8,566 bases of DNA from a virus (IMGVR_UViG_2671180710_000015), one strand, 5' to 3'. Positions 3,124-8,566 are shown, numbered from the stretch's first letter. The notes: generated from the letters alone by a model not told the origin. Numbers and translations: made by a program.

Positions 3124-3314
3124 CTCACTTTTTCGCCTCACTTTTTCAAGCGTCTCACTTCGTCGCAGTTGGGATTTTCGGTTTTTCTATGTGTGTGTTT
3201 CATAAGTATTTTTTTACCCCCTCACTTTTGAGGATGTATACAGGTCGAAAAGTGAGGGAGAGCGGGCTAATTTTGGCCCTCTTTCTATCCCCCTCGCTTT
3301 TGCTCCTCACTTTT
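3124..3314. repeat. Putative replication origin: seven (C)CTCACTTTT iterons in two clusters flanking an A+T-rich spacer
   Basis: CTCACTTTTT occurs at 3124 and 3137, CTCACTTC at 3154 and CTCACTTTTG at 3221. An inverted AAAAGTGAG lies at 3248-3256, CTCGCTTTTG at 3293 and CTCACTTTTA at 3306. The A+T-rich stretch gtgtgtgtttcataagtattttttta lies at about 3190-3217. The element is directly 3' of the helicase gene. Confidence 0.7.
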
Positions 3315-4710
3315 ATAGCGGCGCTACATCATCCCCATCGATACGAATAACCCCATCTTTTTCCAGCTTGTACAGCCAGCGCCGGAAGTTTTTCATTTCA
3401 TACCCCAGCTTTTTCATGTCATCACGTAACAGCGGGATCGTGCACTTGTCGCCGTTCTGTGTGCGTGAACGGATGCACCCCCATAGCGCGGTATGGTTTT
3501 CCGTCTTGTTCCCTGCCTCCTCGATGCGCTCCAGTTCAACAGGAGGGCGCGGATCATCCACCACCACCAGCGACGTGATTAATTCACCGTCAGCGTCGGT
3601 AAAAAGCTCCACCACGCGTAAGTCATATGCGGCTTCTTTGAGTTCCTCCGCGTCCTTCATTTTGGTGCATGAGATAACCAGCGCTTCGCTTCCTGCGTCC
3701 TCCCTGCGTATCCGGTATTCAGCATCCAGCGAAGCACGAAATGCACTGGAACCGCGCGCGCCTTTCGTCTCATCCTTGCCGGAATGGTGAACCACCAGCA
3801 CCGTGGCCCCTGTGCGTCGTTTAAGCTCGTCACAACCACGGATAAACGCCCCCATATCACGGGAATCATTTTCATCATTCCCACCAAAGCAACGCGCCAG
3901 AGTATCCAGAATAATCATGCGTACAGGTTTACCCGTTTCCCGCTCCACCTGACGGGCAGCGATAACCATTTCATCAACATCAAGCGGGGCAGCCGGAAAG
4001 ATGGGACGGTTTACCAGATACAGATTTTTCACCTGTTCACCGTGCACAACCTCCCAGGCTTTTACACGACGCGGAACGCCGATACCGCCTTCACCAACCA
4101 CATAGAGAACCGCACCATGCGCCACCCTGCGGCCTCCCCACTGGCGGCCCGTGGAAACGTGACACGCCCACGATCCGGCAAGGAATGATTTATAGGAACC
4201 GCTCGCCCCGTATATGCTGCAAAGCGATACCGCCGGAATAATTCCCTTCACCACGTAATCAAGCTGCGTGTCGTATCCGGCAGATCCCACGCTCATTGGT
4301 AGCTTGGTTTTTCGCTGGTGGCTCAGGCTTTCCCCGCGTTCCCATGTCTCCCTAAGCCGTGGAAGCTGGTCGCTCCATTCCTCCAGCAATTCGAAATTTT
4401 CAGAAAACAGGCGCGCTTCCTGGACTCCTGCGATTGCCAGTTTCGTGGCGATGGTTAACAACTGCACTTCGTCAATATTTCCGGCACGTATCACTTTCGC
4501 CCTGTATCGCCCATCATCCACAATCTGGAGGTTATCCAGTTCGCTTAACTGATAACGCCCCAGGTAAACGGGAGGGACTGGATCGCCTGCTTTTTTGGCC
4601 TGTGCAATGATGTAGTACTCTGCAAATGAGTGAGCATTATCACCCGCAAAAATAACCGCTTCGGTGTGTTTATCTTTCGGTAACAGTTTTACGTTCGGTG
4701 CCAGTTTCAT
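3313..4710 (-). CDS. Replication initiator/helicase, RepA-like RecA-fold ATPase (AAA_25-type), 465 aa
   Basis: The central domain has Walker A-like GASGSYKS, then GAVLYVVGEGG, Walker B MIILDTL and the sensor block VLVVHHSGKDETKGARGSSAF. The roughly 150-aa N-terminal domain has no recognised fold. The roughly 80-aa C-terminal domain (..FRRWLYKLEKDGVIRI) looks winged-helix-like. No primase motifs were seen. Confidence 0.85.
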   Translation of the reverse strand: MKLAPNVKLLPKDKHTEAVIFAGDNAHSFAEYYIIAQAKKAGDPVPPVYLGRYQLSELDNLQIVDDGRYRAKVIRAGNIDEVQLLTIATKLAIAGVQEARLFSENFELLEEWSDQLPRLRETWERGESLSHQRKTKLPMSVGSAGYDTQLDYVVKGIIPAVSLCSIYGASGSYKSFLAGSWACHVSTGRQWGGRRVAHGAVLYVVGEGGIGVPRRVKAWEVVHGEQVKNLYLVNRPIFPAAPLDVDEMVIAARQVERETGKPVRMIILDTLARCFGGNDENDSRDMGAFIRGCDELKRRTGATVLVVHHSGKDETKGARGSSAFRASLDAEYRIRREDAGSEALVISCTKMKDAEELKEAAYDLRVVELFTDADGELITSLVVVDDPRPPVELERIEEAGNKTENHTALWGCIRSRTQNGDKCTIPLLRDDMKKLGYEMKNFRRWLYKLEKDGVIRIDGDDVAPL

Positions 4711-5006
4711 TTTTTACCCCTGAATCCGTTAATCATGGTTTTCAGCTTCTGGATGTTTTCCCGTGCTCTGGCGTTGCTGGTGGGCACGTTATGCGGCGCG
4801 GTCTGTACCAGAGAAAAATCACGCCGGAACTGATAAACAGGCATCACGCAATCATATTCGTAACCTTCACGGCGGTAAGTTACGCACCGTCCCGCCACGC
4901 CCTTAATCATTACCGTGCCGCCGTACTGGTCGCGGTAAATATCACCGCGCGTAAATTTAGGGTGAGTGTTGCCACTGGCAGTTAAGCCAGAATATTTAAG
5001 TTTCAT
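4707..5006 (-). CDS. Hypothetical 99-aa protein, DUF4222-like by eye
   Basis: GGAG lies upstream of the ATG at 5006, and the stop overlaps the helicase start as ATGA. The segment GDIYRDQYGGTVMIKGVAGRCVTYRREGYEYDCVMPVYQFRRDF resembles the small DUF4222 prophage proteins. The family call has low confidence. Confidence 0.55.
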   Translation of the reverse strand: MKLKYSGLTASGNTHPKFTRGDIYRDQYGGTVMIKGVAGRCVTYRREGYEYDCVMPVYQFRRDFSLVQTAPHNVPTSNARARENIQKLKTMINGFRGKK

Positions 5007-5011
5007 TATTT

Positions 5012-5239
5012 TTATTCTCCGGTGTGGGGCGCTTTATTATTTTCGATAATATCCATTGCCTTATCCAGTTCATCAATAACAGGCGATAGTAATGTCTGAA
5101 TGGCTGCAAACATTAATGACGAAGATTCTTCGCCAGATTCCGGCACTTCAATTAATTTGCCTAACAACGCATTCATTTCCTTTGCGCGGATTAATGCGTT
5201 TTCAGAATGAATAAGAACATCAAAGGGTATTTTATGCAT
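5012..5239 (-). CDS. Hypothetical 75-aa acidic helical protein in a markedly A+T-rich gene
   Basis: The ATG overlaps the stop of the upstream gene (ATGCATAA) with a GGGGTGAG SD-like sequence upstream. A hand count gives 13 Asp/Glu against 6 Lys/Arg. There is no family match by eye. Confidence 0.55.
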   Translation of the reverse strand: MHKIPFDVLIHSENALIRAKEMNALLGKLIEVPESGEESSSLMFAAIQTLLSPVIDELDKAMDIIENNKAPHTGE

Positions 5240-5429
5240 GACTCACCCCCTGGCGAATACGGGCGGCGAATACAGCAACACAACCGGACGGGCAACGGCT
5301 ACGCGCTTCGCGTTCCGTCCAGGCGGTTACGTGGATGATTTGAGATTCTCCGGCACTCAGTGCCAGAAAACGCCACACAAAGGCCGTTTGTGTGTGTGCT
5401 AGTCGTGGGGTATGATTTACGGCAACCAT
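5232..5429 (-). CDS. Icd-like (host cell division inhibitor-like) small protein, 65 aa; first gene of the leftward operon
   Basis: GAGAGG lies 7 nt upstream of the ATG at 5429. The pattern FVWRFLAL...IIHVTAWTEREARS....VAVFAARI recalls the Icd-like proteins annotated in P4-like elements. The call is from memory, not from a search. Confidence 0.5.
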   Translation of the reverse strand: MVAVNHTPRLAHTQTAFVWRFLALSAGESQIIHVTAWTEREARSRCPSGCVAVFAARIRQGVSHA

Positions 5430-5501
5430 AAATTTACCTCTCTATAGTGTTTGTGGTTAGACGCCCTGCATGTGTTCCAGCACTGTGGGGCGTTGTTTTT
5501 T
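5373..5501. repeat. Copy A of a duplicated leader module (5' end of the Icd-like gene, its SD, and a terminator-like hairpin)
   Basis: It shares ordered blocks with 6081-6240 on the plus strand. The blocks are CGTTTGTGTGTGT (5385-5397), CCAT (5426-5429), TTACCTC (5434-5440), TGGTTAGA (5454-5461), and a GCCC..GGGC stem with a T-run (5462-5501). It also contains the hairpin CACACAAA-ggccg-TTTGTGTG (5374-5394). Confidence 0.7.
5462..5501 (+). terminator. Plus-strand terminator-like hairpin antisense to the leader of the leftward operon
   Basis: CGCCCUGCA (5462-5470) pairs with UGUGGGGCG (5484-5492); two of these pairs are G-U. TTGTTTTTT follows. No upstream plus-strand promoter could be identified by eye. 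Confidence 0.4.
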
Positions 5502-5502
5502 G

Positions 5503-5547
5503 GTGCAAGTCACCTTGAAATCTAGGTTACTTTTAGGTGACTTGCAC
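5503..5547. promoter_or_regulatory. Perfect 13-bp inverted repeat (candidate operator) in the divergent control region
   Basis: GTGCAAGTCACCT (5503-5515) and AGGTGACTTGCAC (5535-5547) are separated by 19 bp. The arms bracket the -10 and overlap the spacer and -35 of the proposed leftward promoter. Confidence 0.6.
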
Positions 5548-5572
5548 TTCAAGTCTTTTTTTATTTTTTTTT
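5524..5572 (-). promoter_or_regulatory. Proposed leftward operon promoter (P-left) with an UP-like A-tract
   Basis: On the minus strand, TTGAAG (5552-5547), a 17-nt spacer and TAACCT (5529-5524). It is preceded by A9-T-A7 (the complement of the T7-A-T9 tract at 5556-5572). Confidence 0.4.
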
Positions 5573-5583
5573 CTCCGTATACT
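5556..5583 (+). promoter_or_regulatory. Proposed rightward promoter for the first RHH-like gene
   Basis: TATACT at 5578-5583 lies 30 nt upstream of the ATG at 5614. The -35 position falls in the T7-A-T9 tract, so there is no consensus -35. Confidence 0.3.
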
Positions 5584-5613
5584 GAACACCACCTAACAGT
5601 AAGGAGAACAGAG

Positions 5614-5793
5614 ATGCCAACAGGTACAACCAACAACAAGTCACAACAAAAAACTGCTAGAGTACCTCTAGACGTTTTAAGCGAAATGAATTTGGTAAAA
5701 GAAGAAAACGAAACAGACGCACAATTTATCGTTACTGCCATGCGCGGCGAAATCAAACGCCGCCAGCGTCGCAAGGCCAAAGAATCAGAATAA
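5614..5793 (+). CDS. Ribbon-helix-helix-like small DNA-binding protein, 59 aa (candidate island repressor)
   Basis: AAGGAG (5601-5606) lies 7 nt before the ATG. The pattern ARVPLDVLSEMNLVKEENETDAQFIVTAMRGEIKRRQ fits a beta-strand, helix, helix (Arc/CopG-like) layout. The gene is divergent from the replication operon. Confidence 0.6.
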   Translation: MPTGTTNNKSQQKTARVPLDVLSEMNLVKEENETDAQFIVTAMRGEIKRRQRRKAKESE

Positions 5794-5802
5794 TCACTAT
5801 CA

Positions 5803-5829
5803 GCGCCGTGGTGTGAGGTACTACGGCGC
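5803..5829 (+). other. 10-bp stem hairpin 10 nt downstream of the RHH gene stop
   Basis: GCGCCGTGGT (5803-5812) pairs with ACTACGGCGC (5820-5829), including one G-U pair. The weak U-rich tail is ATTGCTTT. It could be an attenuator or an mRNA stabiliser. Confidence 0.4.
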
Positions 5830-5850
5830 ATTGCTTTACAGGGCAGTACC

Positions 5851-6078
5851 ATGACCAACAACACACTATCACCAATACAAGACACGCAAACGCAAGATGA
5901 TGAAATCATCCGGCAAAGGCAGTCAGAAGCCTGCGCCAGACTTGAGGAAGAACTAACCAGAACAAAAATACCACCACCAGCGCCGCGCTTAGTGCCACCA
6001 GAAAAATTTGCCCTTGAAGATTTTGTCGATAAATACCCACGGCGGCTTAAATCCGGCAAAAACCGACCGCCAGGATGA
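5851..6078 (+). CDS. Hypothetical 75-aa protein (weak call)
   Basis: The ORF is in the same frame as 5614-5793, separated only by one TAA and 19 sense codons. The SD is weak, rare codons are frequent and a Pro-rich centre (KIPPPAPRLVPPEK) is present. No family was recognised. Confidence 0.35.
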   Translation: MTNNTLSPIQDTQTQDDEIIRQRQSEACARLEEELTRTKIPPPAPRLVPPEKFALEDFVDKYPRRLKSGKNRPPG

Positions 6079-6080
6079 GT

Positions 6081-6240
6081 GCACAAAACCGAACTATGAA
6101 ACGGATTATTCCGTTTCCGGGGCGTTTGTGTGTGTATAAAGAGTAAGCTATGCTCTTTTATAGCCATAATCGTTACCTCAATTAATGGTTTGGTTAGAAG
6201 CCCGTTGGTGTTCATAGCGCCAGCGGGCTTTGCTTTTTGT
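6081..6240. repeat. Copy B of the duplicated leader module; on the plus strand it is a candidate sRNA / structured 3' UTR
   Basis: It carries the same ordered blocks as copy A: CGTTTGTGTGTGT (6123-6135), CCAT (6164-6167), TTACCTC (6173-6179) and TGGTTAGA (6191-6198), then a terminator. An extra perfect hairpin GAAACGGA-ttat-TCCGTTTC (6098-6117) is nested inside an outer CACAAAAC/GTTTGTG stem. Confidence 0.65.
6199..6240 (+). terminator. Rho-independent terminator, plus strand
   Basis: GCCCGUUGG (6200-6208) pairs with CCAGCGGGC (6220-6228), followed by UUUGCUUUUUGU. Confidence 0.6.
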
Positions 6241-6258
6241 GTTGATTGTGTGTAATAT
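6230..6258 (+). promoter_or_regulatory. Possible promoter of the second RHH-like gene
   Basis: TTGCTT (6230-6235), a 17-nt spacer and TAATAT (6253-6258). TGTAAT/ATTACA motifs lie at 6251-6256, 6277-6282 and 6288-6293; the last two flank the SD. Confidence 0.35.
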
Positions 6259-6297
6259 GTCACTACACATAAATACATTACATGAGGTGTAATTAAC

Positions 6298-6477
6298 ATG
6301 TCAATACACAAAAACGAAAGGCGTGGTAATCCTCCGTTCCAGTTCCGTTTAGATCCTGACTTACGGGAAAAGATGGAAAAGGCACAACAACATGACGGCG
6401 ATGATTCTCTTGCTGCCTGGATAAAGCGAATAATCCGCAAAGAATTACAGCAACGCGGCATAGAACCCAAAGGGTAA
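6298..6477 (+). CDS. Ribbon-helix-helix (Arc/CopG-like) small DNA-binding protein, 59 aa
   Basis: Hand-translated and below the track cut-off: MSIHKNERRGNPPFQFRLDPDLREKMEKAQQHDGDDSLAAWIKRIIRKELQQRGIEPKG. GAGGTG lies upstream of the ATG. It has the classic RHH layout of FQFRLDP strand, LREKMEKA helix and SLAAWIKRIIRKEL helix. Confidence 0.65.
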   Translation: MSIHKNERRGNPPFQFRLDPDLREKMEKAQQHDGDDSLAAWIKRIIRKELQQRGIEPKG

Positions 6478-6566
6478 TTACATTGCCCACCAGCCTGATA
6501 GCGGCTATCATTCCCGTGCTTATGTTTGGGATCACATAAGGCGCAGCAGGTTAATTGTTCACAAGG

Positions 6567-6592
6567 GCGTTCCGGCAACGGGGCGCTTTTTG
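6567..6592 (+). terminator. Rho-independent terminator (plus strand), convergent with the alpA 3' end
   Basis: GCGUUCCG-GCAA-CGGGGCGC is an 8-bp stem with two G-U pairs and a GNRA loop, followed by UUUUUGUU. On the minus strand no U-tract follows, so alpA read-through is possible. Confidence 0.6.
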
Positions 6593-6621
6593 TTATGTTC
6601 ATCGTGTTATGCCTCACACCA

Positions 6622-6828
6622 TTACGCAGCCGTTCCGCGTGCTTCCTGCTCACGTTCTTTCATCCATGCGATTACGTCTTCCTCATACCATCCGCGACGG
6701 CGTAAACCAACGCGAAAACCCTGCGGAAATTCTCCGGCGTTGATCATGCTTTGAAGCGTGCTGTCTGCCTTGATGTGGATAAGTTTTTTTACTTCCTGGC
6801 GAAAGATGACTTTTTTGATTGCTTCCAT
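6622..6828 (-). CDS. alpA: AlpA-family transcriptional regulator / excisionase-like HTH protein, 68 aa
   Basis: Typical Phage_AlpA pattern: FRQEVKKLIHIKADSTLQSMINAGEFPQGFRVGLRRRGWYEEDVIAWM. AAGGT lies 8 nt upstream of the ATG. Confidence 0.85.
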   Translation of the reverse strand: MEAIKKVIFRQEVKKLIHIKADSTLQSMINAGEFPQGFRVGLRRRGWYEEDVIAWMKEREQEARGTAA

Positions 6829-6846: not shown

Positions 6847-6921
6847 TCCGGTGTATTCCGGTGACAAATACGGTAAATCATCGGATATGGGTAAAAACAG
6901 TTCCCACCGTTTTTAAACGGT
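6847..6921. promoter_or_regulatory. Repeat motifs in the alpA upstream region
   Basis: The direct repeat TCCGGTG occurs at 6847-6853 and 6857-6863, one helical turn apart. The palindrome ACCGTTT-TT-AAACGGT lies at 6906-6921. No convincing sigma70 hexamers were found by eye. Confidence 0.3.
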
Positions 6922-6961
6922 TAGAATCGTTTTTTATGTTGGTGATTTGAAAGGGATTTAT

Positions 6962-6995: not shown

Positions 6996-7247
6996 TTACC
7001 GCCATTTTTTTGGCCTGCCTCCGGTCTTCATGGTTGCCGGACGAACTACCCTGTCGATACTTTCAGCCATATTCCTGGATGCCCCACGGGATACCAGGAA
7101 ATCTACTACCTGTTTTTTTGATGGGGCCGTCGTTCTGTCCTCCGGATCGTAGGTTGACCAAAATTCATGCTGAACCATCAGGGCCAGTTGCAGCCCGTCG
7201 CAATTGCATCTGAAATTTTTTTGCATCTTAACGGTTTCATGTTTCAC
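6996..7247 (-). CDS. Hypothetical 83-aa protein, possibly DNA-binding (basic C-terminus GGRPKKWR)
   Basis: The ORF lies between int and alpA and is followed by a strong terminator. The start is uncertain (GTG 7247 or ATG 7226) and both have weak SDs. The HTH-like segment is KKQVVDFLVSRGASRNMAESIDRVVRP. Confidence 0.5.
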   Translation of the reverse strand: MKHETVKMQKNFRCNCDGLQLALMVQHEFWSTYDPEDRTTAPSKKQVVDFLVSRGASRNMAESIDRVVRPATMKTGGRPKKWR

Positions 7248-7324: not shown

Positions 7325-8566
7325 CTAAACGGCTCGGATACCCCTTTTACCACTGGCGAGGGTTACGCCCGTCGCCGCAGCCTCGACAAATTCGCCCCAC
7401 CAGCGCATAAGCACCACGCGTTTTTCTATGTAGTTGCTCCGGTTGTATGCCCGTCTCACTTCGTTAGTGTCGACGTGGGCAAGTGCGGCCTCGATTACGT
7501 CCGGCTCGAATCCTTCCTCGTTCGCTGCTGTACTGAATATGGCGCGTAATCCATGAGACACCAGCACGCCAGCGAACCCCATGCGTCGTAATGCTGCGTT
7601 TGCTGTCTGGCTGTTCATTGGCTGCCGTGGGTCTTTCAGACTCGGGAAAACATAATCGCGGTGGTGGCTGATTGGTTTCATGGCCTCCAGCACCGCCATA
7701 GCCTGACCGGAAAGTGGGATAACGTGATCCCTGCGCATCTTCATGCGTCCGGCGGGTATCGTCCAGCGTTGCGCGTCCAGGTCGATTTCATCCCACCGCG
7801 TTGATGACGCTTCGGCGGGACGGGTTACGGTCAGTAACTGCCATTCAATCAGTAATCTGGTCTGCCGTTCTGTTGCCGATACTGATAAAGCCTGCATAAG
7901 CTCCGGCAACTGTTCGGGGCGGATTGTTGGCATATGTTTTTTTACAGGGGAGGGGAACGCCTTACGCACATTCATAGCCGGATTGGCATCAATCAGCCCA
8001 CTGTTGGCGGCGTAATCCATTACCTCATTAACGCGCTGTAAAACCCGTTTGAGTGTTTCCAGGTTGCCGCGCTCCTTGATGGGGGTAAGCACCTCAACGA
8101 ACCTGCGAGCGGTCAGGGTGTCTATTGGGGTGTTGCCGATGAACGGGAATACATATTTATCCAGCGATCGCCAGATGTCTTTAATCGTGTTGGGGGCCAG
8201 ATTCTGGCTGATTTTCACCTGGTACCATGCCGCCGCCACATTTTCGAACGTGTTCCCTTGTCTTCGGGCCTCTGCCTCTCGTTTTTTCTTCTCATGGCCC
8301 TGCGGGTCAGTTCCGGCACTGATTAACGCTCTGTACTCGCTACGGCGTTTTCTGGCATCAGCCAGGGAAACATCATCAAGCGATCCAAAACTCAGCAATA
8401 TTCTTTTTTTGTCCGATGGCCGGTAGTAGGAAAATCGCCAGAGTTTTGATCCGGACGGTTTGACCAGGAGAAAAAGCCCTCCGCCGTCCTGTAGGGTGTA
8501 TTCCTTTTCCGCTGGTCTGGCTGCTTTGATCTGCACCGTGGTTAATGGGGGTGTTTTTCTCGCCAT
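7325..8566 (-). CDS. int: Tyrosine recombinase/integrase, P4-type (DUF4102 N-terminal arm-binding domain plus catalytic domain), 413 aa
   Basis: The N-terminus LTTVQIKAARPAEKEYTLQDGGGLFLLVKPSGSKLWRFSYY is the classic P4-like integrase signature. Catalytic motifs are present: TVTRPAEA (Arg), HGLRAIF (His-x-x-Arg) and AHVDTNEVRRAYNRSNY (His and Tyr). The ATG is at the window edge. Confidence 0.95.
   Translation of the reverse strand: MARKTPPLTTVQIKAARPAEKEYTLQDGGGLFLLVKPSGSKLWRFSYYRPSDKKRILLSFGSLDDVSLADARKRRSEYRALISAGTDPQGHEKKKREAEARRQGNTFENVAAAWYQVKISQNLAPNTIKDIWRSLDKYVFPFIGNTPIDTLTARRFVEVLTPIKERGNLETLKRVLQRVNEVMDYAANSGLIDANPAMNVRKAFPSPVKKHMPTIRPEQLPELMQALSVSATERQTRLLIEWQLLTVTRPAEASSTRWDEIDLDAQRWTIPAGRMKMRRDHVIPLSGQAMAVLEAMKPISHHRDYVFPSLKDPRQPMNSQTANAALRRMGFAGVLVSHGLRAIFSTAANEEGFEPDVIEAALAHVDTNEVRRAYNRSNYIEKRVVLMRWWGEFVEAAATGVTLASGKRGIRAV

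What the first reader, a model, noticed from the sequence alone, without database searches (positions are those of the whole stretch)
5614..6477. A+T-rich plus-strand module of three small genes, including two 59-aa RHH-like paralogues, convergent with alpA
This is the only plus-strand coding in the window. It sits between alpA and the replication operon, where PICI-type elements normally continue co-directionally. Both RHH-like proteins (5614-5793 and 6298-6477) are exactly 59 aa. Each has a disordered basic N-terminus and a strand-helix-helix core, and each gene is followed by a hairpin or terminator. The module is visibly more A-rich and richer in rare codons than the flanking genes, which suggests separate acquisition. 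Convergent transcription with alpA is possible because the alpA-side terminator is weak in the minus direction. That would create antisense interference between the activator and the putative repressors. The module could be the island's immunity/repressor cassette or a small accessory system such as an exclusion or anti-helper function.
Basis: inference. Interest (0 to 1): 0.5.

Follow-up and report, generated by a model that had tools for sequence, protein, structure and literature searches.

The report
Antisense-RNA plus RHH repressor cassette in PICI
The three small plus-strand genes are real, but they are part of a larger, widely conserved control cassette: two copies of a previously unannotated SymR-like antisense small RNA, each paired with a ribbon-helix-helix DNA-binding protein. 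This cassette most likely keeps the replication operon of this phage satellite (a Gram-negative PICI) switched off, and no repressor has yet been identified for that class of element.

Summary
The ORFs exist as described: ORF1 5614-5793, ORF2 5851-6078, ORF3 6298-6477. ORF1 belongs to the YlcI/YnfO family. ORF3 belongs to a widespread unnamed 59-aa family. Both model as ribbon-helix-helix (RHH) proteins. Paralogy is only weakly supported, and the compositional oddity is modest.

A ~78-nt structured plus-strand RNA gene ("E") sits upstream of each RHH gene: E1 at 5424-5501 and E2 at 6162-6240. E1 is exactly antisense to the Shine-Dalgarno sequence and start codon of the icd-like first gene of the replication operon.

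E is conserved upstream of RHH genes in about 80 loci from Enterobacterales, Orbaceae, Pasteurellaceae and Aeromonadales. It shows strong covariation, with 16 of 21 pairs compensatory and 256 G·U against 4 A·C cells. It has an invariant -10 box and start site, and it gives reciprocal sub-threshold similarity to SymR.

Palindromic operator-like repeats between E and each RHH gene change with the RHH class. The cassette is also present in the prototype PICI EcCICFT073, whose literature calls these islands unidirectionally transcribed and their repressor unclear.

Best reading: a dual sRNA + RHH immunity cassette, here tandemly duplicated. All function is inferred; nothing here measures expression.

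The parts
5411..5416 (+). -10 box (TATGAT) of the E1 sRNA promoter, lying inside codons 5-6 of the icd-like gene
   Evidence: TAnnnT is invariant in all 83 aligned copies. It lies 8 nt upstream of an invariant A taken as the start site. It aligns in register with the -10 of genuine K-12 symR. The promoter is inferred, not measured.
5424..5501 (+). E1: SymR-like cis-antisense sRNA (~78 nt). The 5' AACCAU pairs with the icd-like start codon. SL1 is 5424-5458 and carries CCUC (anti-SD) in its loop. SL2 is 5460-5494 and, with the following U-run, forms the terminator.
   Evidence: Model R1 scores 85 bits. The single-sequence fold is -30.3 kcal/mol with z = -5.7, against z = -2.65 for the opposite strand. 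The family shows covariation. Terminator scan. Weak Rfam symR match of 25.9 bits at 5424-5497.
5232..5429 (-). icd-like first gene of the replication operon (target of E1). SD GAGG is at 5440-5437 and ATG at 5429-5427.
   Evidence: NF033153 phage_ICD_like scores 64.8 bits. phrog_29966 and phrog_1743 also match. RefSeq calls it 'host cell division inhibitor Icd-like protein' in related islands.
5503..5547 (.). Perfect 13-bp inverted repeat GTGCAAGTCACCT / AGGTGACTTGCAC with a 19-bp centre. It is the candidate operator of ORF1 and overlaps the inferred minus-strand promoter (-35 TTGAAG 5552-5547, -10 TAACCT 5529-5524).
   Evidence: Inverted repeat I7. It is unique in the window. Other YlcI-type alleles carry different palindromes at the same place. 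The promoter is inferred from sequence.
5578..5583 (+). Inferred -10 (TATACT) of the ORF1-ORF2 promoter, preceded by a T-tract
   Evidence: GTATACTG is conserved upstream of YlcI-type genes in L001, L003, L004 and CFT073. Inference only.
5614..5793 (+). ORF1: 59-aa RHH protein of the YlcI/YnfO family; candidate repressor of the proximal control region
5803..5829 (+). 12-bp hairpin between ORF1 and ORF2 with a poor U-tract (partial terminator or processing site)
   Evidence: It is conserved in EcCICFT073.
5851..6078 (+). ORF2: 75-aa partner protein of unknown function with C-terminal motif KFALEDFVxKYPRRLKSGKNRPPG. It is a distant relative of the 57-67-aa 'ORF4' that follows the RHH gene in other islands.
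   Evidence: Homologues show in-frame indels. Only 19 representatives exist in 1.84 billion proteins. BLASTP against ORF4 gives E = 0.009. No Pfam, NCBIfam or PADLOC family matches.
6149..6154 (+). -10 box (TATGCT) of the E2 sRNA promoter
   Evidence: Same invariant columns as for E1.
6162..6240 (+). E2: second copy of the SymR-like sRNA. SL1 is 6162-6195 and the SL2 terminator is 6197-6231. It also terminates ORF1-ORF2 transcripts. It is antisense to an SD (GAGG) and ATG (6167) on the minus strand.
   Evidence: R1 scores 86.2 bits. The fold is -35.1 kcal/mol with z = -5.9. It is a direct repeat of E1 at a spacing of 738 nt. Terminator.
6241..6297 (.). Control region of ORF3. TGTAAT/ATTACA half-sites lie at 6251, 6277 and 6288. 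Inferred P_ORF3 has -35 TTGCTT 6230-6235 and -10 TAATAT 6253-6258. The inferred minus-strand promoter has -10 TAATGT (6280-6275), and its -35 TTGACA (6304-6299) is formed by ORF3 codons 1-3.
   Evidence: Spacer comparison across loci. Motif-by-class table. TTGACA is present in 60 of 71 distinct spacers. Site positions. The promoters are inferred.
6298..6477 (+). ORF3: 59-aa RHH protein of the widespread class-A family (RRGNPPFQFRLDPELR)
6563..6590 (+). Terminator shared by the convergent ORF3 and alpA transcripts, with a U-tract only on the plus strand
   Evidence: and direct reading of the sequence.
5457..6602 (-). Long open frame on the alpA strand ('bridge ORF', 381 codons from ATG 6602, with SD GAGG at 6615-6612). 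It starts 20 nt after the alpA stop, runs antisense through ORF3, E2, ORF2 and ORF1, and stops 28 nt before the icd-like ATG.
   Evidence: listed as 5457-6653. Permutation tests show the openness is non-random. The same feature occurs in related loci, sometimes fused in frame to icd-like. Its function is unknown.
6622..6828 (-). alpA-like HTH regulator, convergent with the module
   Evidence: PF05930 scores 17.8 bits, below the cut-off of 21. phrog_66 'excisionase and transcriptional regulator' gives 1.4e-7.

Best explanation
The plus-strand segment ~5400-6600 is the satellite's repression (immunity) cassette, present here as two tandem units of ~738 nt. Each unit holds three things: (i) a constitutively promoted ~78-nt SymR-like antisense RNA; (ii) a control region with palindromic operators; and (iii) a 59-aa RHH DNA-binding protein. 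Unit 1 also carries a small partner protein, ORF2.

Unit 1 (E1-ORF1-ORF2) abuts the replication operon. E1 RNA is perfectly complementary to the 5' UTR, Shine-Dalgarno sequence and start codon of the icd-like first gene. As SymR does for symE, it blocks translation of that gene. This should also lower expression of the downstream DUF4222, RepA-helicase and other replication genes, through polarity or mRNA decay.

The ORF1 RHH dimer binds the 13-bp inverted repeat at 5503-5547. That represses the minus-strand promoter embedded in the repeat and autoregulates ORF1.

Unit 2 (E2-ORF3) has the arrangement that directly abuts the operon in most other genera. Here it lies one unit further upstream. 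There it would gate a second minus-strand promoter and any read-through coming from alpA. E2 covers the SD and ATG at 6167 of the long alpA-strand frame.

Induction would require helper-triggered AlpA to override both layers.

Shown by computation: the genes, the folds, the RNA structure and its strand, the conservation, and the operator/protein co-variation. Inferred: all promoters, the binding, the repression, and the link to induction.
For: RNA element:
- Two window copies score 85 and 86 bits, both on the plus strand.
- 78 of 80 loci found through the ORF3 protein carry exactly one copy, always on the RHH strand and ending ~50 nt before the RHH start.
- Loci not used to build the model also match: EcCICFT073 at 73.3 bits, and Klebsiella-type and Morganellaceae YlcI loci at 74.6-97 bits.
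- Of 21 consensus pairs, 16 show compensatory changes.
- 97.2% of cells are paired against 86.3% in shuffles (0 of 500 reach the observed value) and 36-48% when the partners are slid.
- There are 256 G·U cells against 4 A·C, so the same helices are only 82.7% paired on the other strand.
- Plus-strand folds have z = -5.7 and -5.9, against -2.4 and -2.65 for the minus strand.
- The -10 TAnnnT is invariant, and an invariant A lies 8 nt downstream, followed by GCCAU, the anti-start codon. CCUC (anti-SD) sits in the SL1 loop.

SymR relationship:
- Rfam symR hits the element at 41.2 bits in L073 and 25.9 bits in the window.
- My model hits genuine K-12 symR at 29.9 bits, E = 1.2e-5, with -10 and +1 in register.
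- SymR is a 77-nt RNA whose promoter lies inside symE. It represses SymE translation in cis and in trans (PMC1891008).

RHH proteins:
- Family and fold evidence.

Operators:
- Repeat motifs in the E-to-RHH spacer switch with RHH class. TGTAAT averages 2.14 copies per spacer in class A. GGTAAT averages 2.50 in class B. GTGTC averages 2.07 in class C. CACCT averages 2.67 in the YlcI type.
- Different YlcI alleles carry different palindromes at the same position.
- A perfect TTGACA on the operon strand is formed by RHH codons 1-3 in 60 of 71 distinct spacers, with a TAnnnT 16-18 nt away in 58 of 71.

Architecture:
- The order primase/rep ... first gene (-), RHH (+), alpA and int (-) is conserved across four orders.

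Field context:
- The PICI literature states that a global repressor in Gram-negative PICIs is unclear and that they are transcribed unidirectionally (PMC6092414).
Against: - There is no expression, binding or genetic data of any kind. Every promoter is a sequence inference, and the generic promoter scan did not pick them up.
- The sRNA -35 region is poorly conserved.
- Most loci used for the covariation analysis also built the model, and they are phylogenetically related. The shuffle statistics therefore overstate independence.
- In this window, unit 2 has no replication gene directly opposite it, so its role is the least certain.
- The partner protein ORF2 has no assigned role in the model.
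- AlpA-dependent induction has been shown experimentally to be necessary in related PICIs. Nothing yet shows that a repressor must be removed.
- Because the alpA strand is open across the cassette, the operon may be driven mainly from upstream. In that case the RHH operators would control only the RHH genes themselves.
Confidence: 0.6

Rival explanations
1. The module is a set of addiction (toxin-antitoxin) systems rather than the island's master control. One would be a type I pair, with the Icd-like division inhibitor as toxin and E as RNA antitoxin. The other would be type II-like pairs, with the RHH protein as antitoxin and ORF2/ORF4 as toxin. Their job would be to stabilise the island in the chromosome.
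Against: The gene opposite E is not always icd-like. In Xenorhabdus it is a 924-aa primase fusion, and elsewhere an ash-icd fusion. E therefore gates whatever heads the replication operon. The partner ORF is absent from most loci, where alpA follows the RHH gene within ~70-150 nt. The partner family is tiny, matches no toxin family, and looks hydrophilic and low in complexity. The operators lie in the control region shared with the operon.
Confidence: 0.15
2. The module is an accessory anti-helper or exclusion function. The RHH proteins, relatives of YlcI/YnfO proteins of lambdoid prophages, would bind helper-phage DNA, or the sRNA would target helper transcripts, to interfere with or sense the helper.
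For: ORF1 belongs to a family named after proteins of the lambdoid prophages DLP12 and Qin. The family matches PHROG phage families 949 and 6522. The RHH alleles and their palindromes are highly diverse, as expected for specificity determinants. SymR can act in trans.
Against: The cognate palindromes sit immediately upstream of each RHH gene within the island, and in the window they occur nowhere else. The sRNA's perfect target is the island's own first operon gene. There are no PADLOC defence hits apart from one weak ORF4 match. The position is invariant and core rather than in the variable accessory regions.
Confidence: 0.1
3. E is not an independent sRNA. It would be only a DNA/RNA composite of a leader hairpin, the SD and start of the minus-strand gene, and a plus-strand terminator that insulates the RHH promoter. 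Its conservation would then reflect those separate constraints.
For: The element does contain the SD, the start codon and the first codons of the minus-strand gene. Its 3' tail supplies the inferred -35 of the RHH promoter. The sRNA -35 is weak. No transcript data exist.
Against: The helices covary with a 256:4 excess of G·U over A·C, so selection acts on the plus-strand RNA. A plus-strand terminator at this spot needs a plus-strand transcript, and the invariant TAnnnT followed 8 nt later by the invariant A supplies one. Reciprocal similarity to the experimentally proven SymR includes its promoter register.
Confidence: 0.08
4. The plus-strand ORFs are shadows, and the real gene is the long alpA-strand ORF (5457-6602/6653). 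This is how older PICI maps draw the region, as a co-directional 'ORF3'.
For: The alpA-strand frame is open across the whole module, far beyond chance. It has an SD and ATG 20 nt after the alpA stop. It is fused in frame to icd-like in EcCICFT073 and Morganellaceae loci. Some gene callers do call it.
Against: The RHH families show protein-like conservation, confident helix predictions, RHH structural neighbours and curated HMM hits. Operators co-vary with their N-terminal strand residues. The long ORF's product has no family hit. It is not conserved outside the stretches that mirror the plus-strand genes. Both strands may be used, but the plus-strand genes are not artefacts.
Confidence: 0.03

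Closest known systems
SymR/SymE of E. coli K-12 (Rfam RF01809; Kawano, Aravind & Storz 2007, PMC1891008)
   Same: Both are ~77-nt cis-antisense RNAs. The promoter lies inside the target ORF and the +1 lies a few nt from the target start codon. The RNA covers the start codon, SD and 5' UTR and folds into two hairpins, the second a terminator. Covariance-model hits are reciprocal. Shared strings include AG(C/U)CAU at the 5' end, UG(U/G)(G/A)UUAG and GUGUU..GCAC.
   Different: Scores are below Rfam's gathering threshold (25.9-41.2 bits against 61). The target is the icd-like or first gene of a satellite replication operon, not SymE. The RNA is followed at a fixed ~50-60 nt by an RHH gene with operators. 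The target promoter is not visibly LexA-controlled. The element sits in mobile satellites across four orders.
immI region of phage P22: Arc and Mnt (RHH repressors) plus sar antisense RNA controlling ant (own knowledge: Susskind & Youderian; Liao, Wu, McClure & Susskind 1987)
   Same: Two small RHH repressors with their own operators are combined with a short antisense RNA that covers the ribosome-binding site of the gene to be silenced. All of this sits in a compact bidirectional control region. ORF3 hits the PHROG 'Arc-like repressor' family.
   Different: The controlled gene is an antirepressor in P22, and a division-inhibitor-like/replication operon here. The gene order differs. No sequence relation of E to sar was tested. 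This is a resemblance recalled from memory, not a test.
P1/P7 c4 RNA-icd-ant and P4 CI RNA immunity (Rfam C4, RF01695)
   Same: An immunity RNA occludes the translation-initiation region of the first small gene of an operon (icd in P1, kil/eta in P4), and the operon is thereby shut off. The first gene here is an Icd-family homologue. It is also related to the P4 'cI ORF'/Ash PHROG.
   Different: c4 and CI are processed from the same strand as their targets and act in trans through short complementary boxes. E is a separately promoted cis-antisense RNA. No Rfam C4 match was found at E <= 1, and the E model does not match the P4 genome.
Plasmid copy control by an RHH repressor plus antisense RNA (pMV158 CopG + RNAII; R1 CopB + CopA) (own knowledge)
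   Same: A replication gene is under dual negative control by a small transcriptional repressor and a countertranscript that blocks its translation. The RHH fold is the same as CopG's.
   Different: CopG is co-transcribed with repB. Here the RHH gene is divergent and on the same strand as the RNA. The element is an integrated phage satellite, not a plasmid.
Stl/Rpr master repressors of Gram-positive PICIs (SaPIs) (PMC6092414)
   Same: The position and presumed role match: a regulator transcribed divergently from the excision/replication operon that keeps the island quiescent until a helper phage acts.
   Different: Stl/Rpr are larger HTH proteins that are inactivated by binding helper proteins. 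Here there is a 59-aa RHH plus an sRNA. The known inducer logic in Gram-negative PICIs is helper-dependent alpA expression, and no derepression mechanism is known.

Membership tests
Ribbon-helix-helix (MetJ/Arc) superfamily | N-terminal beta-strand followed by two helices (beta-alpha-alpha), with structural similarity to solved RHH proteins | tested here: met
Ribbon-helix-helix (MetJ/Arc) superfamily | Obligate dimer forming a two-stranded antiparallel sheet that reads the DNA major groove | not testable with these tools
   Only monomer prediction was available. Palindromic or repeated candidate sites that co-vary with the strand residues are indirect support.
Ribbon-helix-helix (MetJ/Arc) superfamily | Significant match to a curated RHH sequence family (Pfam clan) | tested here: not met
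   No Pfam hit at E <= 1 for ORF1, and only noise for ORF3. PDB profile searches gave nothing relevant. ORF3 does match PHROG 228 'Arc-like repressor' at 4e-6.
YlcI/YnfO family (NCBIfam NF041551) | Score at or above the curated cut-off of 30 bits | tested here: met
   ORF1 scores 61.7 bits, E = 4.7e-17. This holds for ORF1 only. ORF3 scores 17.6 bits (E = 0.0029), below the cut-off, and is not a member by this criterion.
SymR antisense RNA (Rfam RF01809) | Score at or above the gathering threshold of 61 bits | tested here: not met
   Window E1 scores 25.9 bits. The best related copy (L073) scores 41.2 bits. The element is a relative or analogue, not a member as the family is curated.
SymR antisense RNA (Rfam RF01809) | cis-antisense to the 5' end of its target, promoter inside the target ORF, ~77 nt, two hairpins with a terminator | tested here: met
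   Sequence anatomy. The alignment of model R1 to genuine symR keeps -10 and +1 in register. Expression itself was not testable.
P1 c4 / P4 CI immunity RNA (Rfam C4 RF01695 and relatives) | Match to the family model; RNA encoded on the same strand and upstream of icd/kil; short boxes complementary to the target | tested here: not met
   No C4-type hit at E <= 1 in the window or in six related loci. E lies on the opposite strand. No E-model hit in P4.
Type II toxin-antitoxin operon | Antitoxin gene paired with a conserved toxin gene of a recognisable family | tested here: not met
   ORF2/ORF4 match no Pfam, NCBIfam or PADLOC toxin family. The partner is absent next to most RHH homologues, and its family has 19 representatives. 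Toxicity itself was not testable.
Gram-negative PICI / capsid-forming PICI | int, alpA, primase/replicase module, and (for cf-PICI) own capsid genes in a ~10-16-kb island | tested here: met
   The window holds int (7325-8566), an alpA-like gene, an AAA_25 RepA-type helicase (146 bits), DUF4222, SSB, PerC and a capsid gene. The 95%-identical island L001 is annotated with major capsid and HK97 prohead protease genes. The same cassette is in the prototype EcCICFT073. Helper dependence is not testable here.

The most novel reading that the evidence does not exclude
The cassette is the long-sought repression system of Gram-negative PICIs, and it is written on both strands. A SymR-like sRNA and an RHH repressor are embedded antisense inside a translated 'bridge' ORF that physically links alpA to the icd/replication operon. 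In the quiescent state, the RHH and sRNA silence the operon's own promoter(s) and the translation starts. On helper infection, AlpA-driven transcription enters from upstream. Continuous translation of the bridge ORF protects that transcript from Rho and delivers ribosomes to, or fused into, the icd-like start, bypassing the sRNA. Convergent transcription then shuts off the RHH and sRNA promoters, flipping the switch. K-12 symER would be a domesticated remnant of such a cassette.
Probability: 0.25. Interest if true: 0.85.

Novelty: new variant of a known kind. Interest (0 to 1): 0.68.

Why it matters
Gram-negative PICIs and capsid-forming PICIs are abundant: 956 of 5426 complete E. coli genomes match this region. 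They matter for gene transfer, virulence and phage defence.

[quoted passage not shown] This analysis shows that a divergent, conserved cassette was overlooked, including in the prototype EcCICFT073, where the small genes entered RefSeq only under late locus tags.

The cassette gives the field concrete, cheap experiments: silent -10 mutations, operator EMSAs and RHH deletions. These can test whether satellites of this type are held silent by an sRNA plus an RHH repressor, and how the helper phage overrides them.

The analysis also does three other things. It enlarges the SymR RNA family from a chromosomal curiosity to a mobile-element regulator found in four orders. It assigns a probable role to the uncharacterised YlcI/YnfO protein family. 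It flags a possible case of functional antisense-overlapping reading frames.

Tried and rejected
- Direct paralogy test. BLASTP of ORF1 against ORF3 found nothing, and hhalign was marginal. I do not claim close paralogy.
- Pfam and PDB sequence searches for the two RHH proteins gave no useful hits.
- P1 c4 / P4 CI-type immunity RNA was my first idea because of the icd-like gene. I rejected it: there is no Rfam C4 hit, the strand is wrong, and P4 has no E-model hit.
- I first read the 120-nt direct repeat as a recombination scar or a trans-acting 3'-UTR RNA. The finding that each copy is a complete promoter-sRNA-terminator unit replaced that reading.
- A third ORF1 operator half-site near 5584-5598 is not within 3 mismatches of the 13-mer. 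It shares only CACCT, so I did not claim it.
- An extended -10 or a conserved -35 for the sRNA promoter was not found.
- The generic sigma-70 scan found none of the promoters I infer.
- Defence-system models (PADLOC) gave nothing meaningful.
- The long alpA-strand ORF as a conserved protein was rejected: it has no family, and its N-terminal part is not conserved between islands.
- Literature searches for YlcI/YnfO function, and for PICI combined with antisense RNA, sRNA or RHH, found only annotation-level mentions.
- A search with the ORF2 profile for remote homologues that might suggest a function found only a tiny family of similar small proteins.
Full report
**What the window is.** The window is most of a capsid-forming PICI-type phage satellite of Escherichia. 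On the minus strand it carries:
- an integrase (7325-8566);
- an AlpA-like regulator (6622-6828);
- an icd-like small gene (5232-5429);
- a DUF4222 gene;
- an AAA_25 RepA-type helicase (3313-4710);
- SSB, PerC and a major capsid gene.

A 95%-identical island in E. coli OkiPb01677 is annotated with the same genes plus an HK97 prohead protease. 956 of 5426 complete E. coli genomes match the region 5400-6700.

**Check of the observation.**
- The three plus-strand ORFs are at the stated coordinates, have ribosome-binding sites, and are annotated identically in RefSeq relatives.
- ORF1 (5614-5793) is a YlcI/YnfO-family protein: NF041551 at 61.7 bits against a cut-off of 30, phrog_949, and 119 homologue clusters in Enterobacterales.
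- ORF3 (6298-6477) belongs to an unnamed 59-aa family with 112 clusters reaching Pasteurellaceae and Orbaceae. It hits PHROG 228 'Arc-like repressor' at 4e-6.
- ORF2 (5851-6078) has only E. coli relatives. They keep the frame through in-frame indels and share a C-terminal motif, KFALEDFVxKYPRRLKSGKNRPPG. ORF2 is therefore a real gene of unknown function.
- Hairpins or terminators follow each gene.

The compositional claim is only partly true. Coding-strand A and GC3 are at the edge of the island's range. Rare codons are raised in ORF2 and ORF3 but not in ORF1.

Sequence evidence that ORF1 and ORF3 are paralogues is weak.

**The part that was missed: a repeated RNA gene.** Repeat finding showed that ~120 nt around 5380-5500 recur at 6118-6240, at a spacing of 738 nt. 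Each copy ends in a plus-strand terminator.

The same element lies upstream of every RHH gene in related E. coli islands, which carry one, two or three such units. I fetched 80 loci from one-genome-per-species contigs using the ORF3 family. The architecture primase/rep ... first gene (-), RHH (+), alpA and int (-) recurs in Enterobacterales, Orbaceae, Pasteurellaceae and Aeromonadales. The element is found by nhmmer in 84 of 87 loci and by a covariance model in 78 of 80. It is always on the RHH strand and always ends ~50-60 nt before the RHH start codon.

Loci that played no part in building the model also match: EcCICFT073 at 73.3 bits, and Klebsiella-type and Morganellaceae islands reached through YlcI-type proteins at 74.6-97 bits.

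**Evidence that it is an RNA, and on which strand.**
- In an 83-sequence alignment, RNAalifold predicts 21 pairs, of which 16 show compensatory double changes.
- 97.2% of cells are paired, against 86.3% in column shuffles (0 of 500 reach the observed value) and 36-48% when partners are slid by 1-3 columns.
- There are 256 G·U cells but only 4 A·C cells. The same helices are therefore only 82.7% paired on the other strand.
- The two window copies fold as two hairpins at -30.3 and -35.1 kcal/mol (z = -5.7 and -5.9). Their reverse complements give z = -2.65 and -2.4.
- A TAnnnT hexamer is invariant. Eight nucleotides downstream lies an invariant A, at 5424 in E1 and 6162 in E2, followed by GCCAU. 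That sequence is the complement of the start codon and second codon of the gene on the other strand.
- The complement of that gene's Shine-Dalgarno sequence (CCUC) sits in the loop of hairpin 1. Hairpin 2 plus a U-run is a terminator.
- The gene opposite is usually icd-like. It can instead be an ash-icd fusion, or in Xenorhabdus a 924-aa primase. The element therefore gates whatever gene heads the replication operon.

**Relation to SymR.** Rfam 15 has no family that reaches threshold here. The only recurring sub-threshold hit is SymR: 25.9 bits on window E1 and 41.2 bits on the Oceanisphaera copy, against a gathering score of 61.

In the other direction, my model finds the genuine K-12 symR at 29.9 bits (E = 1.2e-5), with the -10 box and +1 aligned in register.

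SymR is a 77-nt RNA whose promoter is embedded in symE. It represses SymE translation in cis and in trans and is present in roughly 10-fold excess (PMC1891008).

The element is thus a SymR-like antisense RNA by anatomy and probably by descent, but it is not a member of the family as curated. It does not resemble P1 c4 or P4 CI RNA, and it is absent from P4 itself.

**The RHH proteins and their likely sites.** The ~61-nt spacer between the RNA terminator and ORF3-type genes contains repeated half-sites that change with the protein's N-terminal strand sequence:

| RHH class (N-terminal strand) | Repeats in the spacer |
|---|---|
| ..PPFQFRL | TGTAATGTGTCATTACA plus CATTACA-N7-TGTAAT |
| ..SPQYQMRL | ATGGTnATTACCAT and GGTAATTACC |
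| ..NKQIALRV | GTGTCnnACAC and GTGTCnGACAC |

.

YlcI-type units have a ~115-nt spacer with allele-specific palindromes. In this window that is the perfect 13-bp inverted repeat at 5503-5515/5535-5547, which is unique in the window.

On the operon strand, a perfect TTGACA is formed by RHH codons 1-3 (ATG TCA A) in 60 of 71 distinct spacers. A TAnnnT lies 16-18 nt away, inside a half-site, in 58 of 71. This explains the conserved 'MS(T)' N-terminus.

An invariant TTG in the terminator tail, 17 nt from a TAATNT, fits a promoter for the RHH gene. These promoters are my inference. The generic scan did not report them.

**Most likely mechanism.** The cassette provides two layers of repression of the icd-like/replication operon.
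- The antisense RNA blocks translation of the first gene. By polarity or mRNA decay it should also lower expression of the downstream replication genes.
- The RHH protein represses the operon promoter embedded in its operators and autoregulates.

In this window the cassette is tandemly duplicated. Unit 1 (E1, ORF1, ORF2) abuts the operon. Unit 2 (E2, ORF3) lies 738 nt upstream and is convergent with alpA across a one-sided terminator (6563-6590). Because E1 and E2 are homologous, E2 could also pair with the icd leader, with a predicted duplex of -70 kcal/mol at z = -7.4.

This logic resembles SymR/SymE, the P22 immI region (Arc, Mnt and sar RNA), P1 c4-icd, and plasmid CopG/RNAII control. The P22 and plasmid comparisons are from memory.

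I put 0.6 on this reading as a whole. My confidence is higher (~0.8) that the RNA is real and acts on the overlapping start site. It is lower (~0.4) that the cassette is the master switch of island induction.

In current RefSeq, the prototype EcCICFT073 has, between alpA and the icd-like gene and on the opposite strand, a YlcI/YnfO gene and a 57-aa partner under late-added locus tags. It also has one copy of the RNA element. Searches of the held literature found no description of this RNA or of a role for these RHH proteins. Absence from that library is not proof of absence.

**Unexplained: a long open frame on the alpA strand.** From an SD and ATG 20 nt after the alpA stop (6602), the minus strand is free of stops through ORF3, E2, ORF2 and ORF1. 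It stops at 5457, which is 28 nt before the icd-like ATG.
- Synonymous permutation gives P = 0.13 for ORF3 alone. Shuffling the non-coding pieces gives P = 0.009, 0.05 and 0.49.
- Across 84 distinct ORF3 homologues this antisense frame is open in 62, against 31.7 ± 3.7 expected. Relatedness inflates this figure.
- In EcCICFT073 a 428-aa frame runs from just after alpA and is fused in frame to icd-like. The same holds for L002, L006 and a Morganellaceae island.
- Other islands have two overlapping long frames.
- The product has no family and is not conserved beyond the mirror image of the plus-strand genes.

One possibility is that translation, not the protein, matters: it could protect AlpA-driven read-through from Rho and carry ribosomes past the sRNA-controlled start. 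P. aeruginosa AlpA is a processive antiterminator (PMC7969949, PMC9371919, listed). Whether the PICI AlpA behaves likewise is untested.

**Caveats.**
- There are no expression or binding data.
- The structure models are monomers.
- The loci are related, and most were used to build the RNA model.
- Promoter assignments are by eye.
- The role of ORF2 and the function of unit 2 in this particular island are open.

Noticed in passing
window 5457-6653 (-); also L089 7767-9053, L093 3643-4710, L002 2273-3274, L006 1993-3000: A long stop-free frame on the alpA strand spans the whole plus-strand module. It starts just after alpA and ends at, or is fused in frame with, the icd-like gene. Its openness is statistically non-random and recurs in several genera, but its product is not conserved. 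This may be translation-dependent read-through or antisense-overlapping coding.
   Followed up: partly
L096 2836-2912 (E. coli K-12 symR) compared with window 5424-5501: The chromosomal SymR antitoxin RNA of K-12 appears to be a relative of the satellite sRNA, with reciprocal sub-threshold covariance-model hits and promoter and +1 in register. This suggests that symER derives from, or shares ancestry with, a mobile-element cassette.
   Followed up: partly
L089 (NC_004431.1 1380242-1381052): In the prototype PICI EcCICFT073, the YlcI/YnfO gene, its 57-aa partner and the icd-like gene carry late RefSeq locus tags (C_RS30800, C_RS30120, C_RS30125). This fits their absence from the maps used in the PICI literature, which draw a co-directional 'ORF3' here.
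   Followed up: partly
window 5232-5429 (-); L087 (P4) 8168-8584: The icd-like protein matches phrog_1743/phrog_6196, labelled 'transcriptional repressor'. That label seems to descend from the old protein annotation of the P4 cI region. From my own knowledge, P4 immunity is now attributed to an RNA, so the label is probably misleading.
   Followed up: no
L025 and L053 (Xenorhabdus), gene starting at 4868/4865 (-): Here the gene opposite the sRNA is a 924-aa primase that begins with the same short N-terminal peptide (MADTQHNQTR..) as the icd-like proteins. Those first codons seem to be conserved because they encode the sRNA promoter on the other strand.
   Followed up: no
L003 1942-3808; L031, L041, L057, L071 near 4670-5470: The number of RHH units varies. 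L003 has three units (two YlcI-type plus one ORF3-type), and several other genera have two adjacent ORF3-type RHH genes. The cassette is therefore prone to tandem duplication and allele swapping.
   Followed up: partly
L001 7138-7341, L004 3525-3728, L089 8243-8416: A 57-67-aa 'ORF4' follows the ORF3-type or YlcI-type RHH gene in many E. coli islands. It is distantly similar to ORF2, sharing MTN... and F.L(D/E)(E/D)F(L/V).KY.R. It is missing after ORF3 in this window, where alpA follows within 144 nt.
   Followed up: partly
window 6893-6934: Two adjacent 20-nt segments, AAAAACAGTTCCCACCGTTT and AAACGGTTAGAATCGTTTTT, form both a direct and an inverted repeat. They lie between the 83-aa ORF (6996-7247) and alpA, about 65 nt upstream of the alpA start. 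This could be a terminator or a regulatory site for alpA.
   Followed up: no
L060 8763-8830 (-): A match above threshold to the Rfam int-alpA RNA motif (RF02996, 42.4 bits against a gathering score of 35.8) lies between alpA and int in a Rahnella island. No such match exists in the window.
   Followed up: no
L053 1319-1499 (+) and 6988-7167 (-): Two near-threshold matches to Rfam psRNA2 (57.8 and 55.8 bits against a gathering score of 65) flank the Xenorhabdus island in opposite orientation. They may be a repeated element at the island borders.
   Followed up: no
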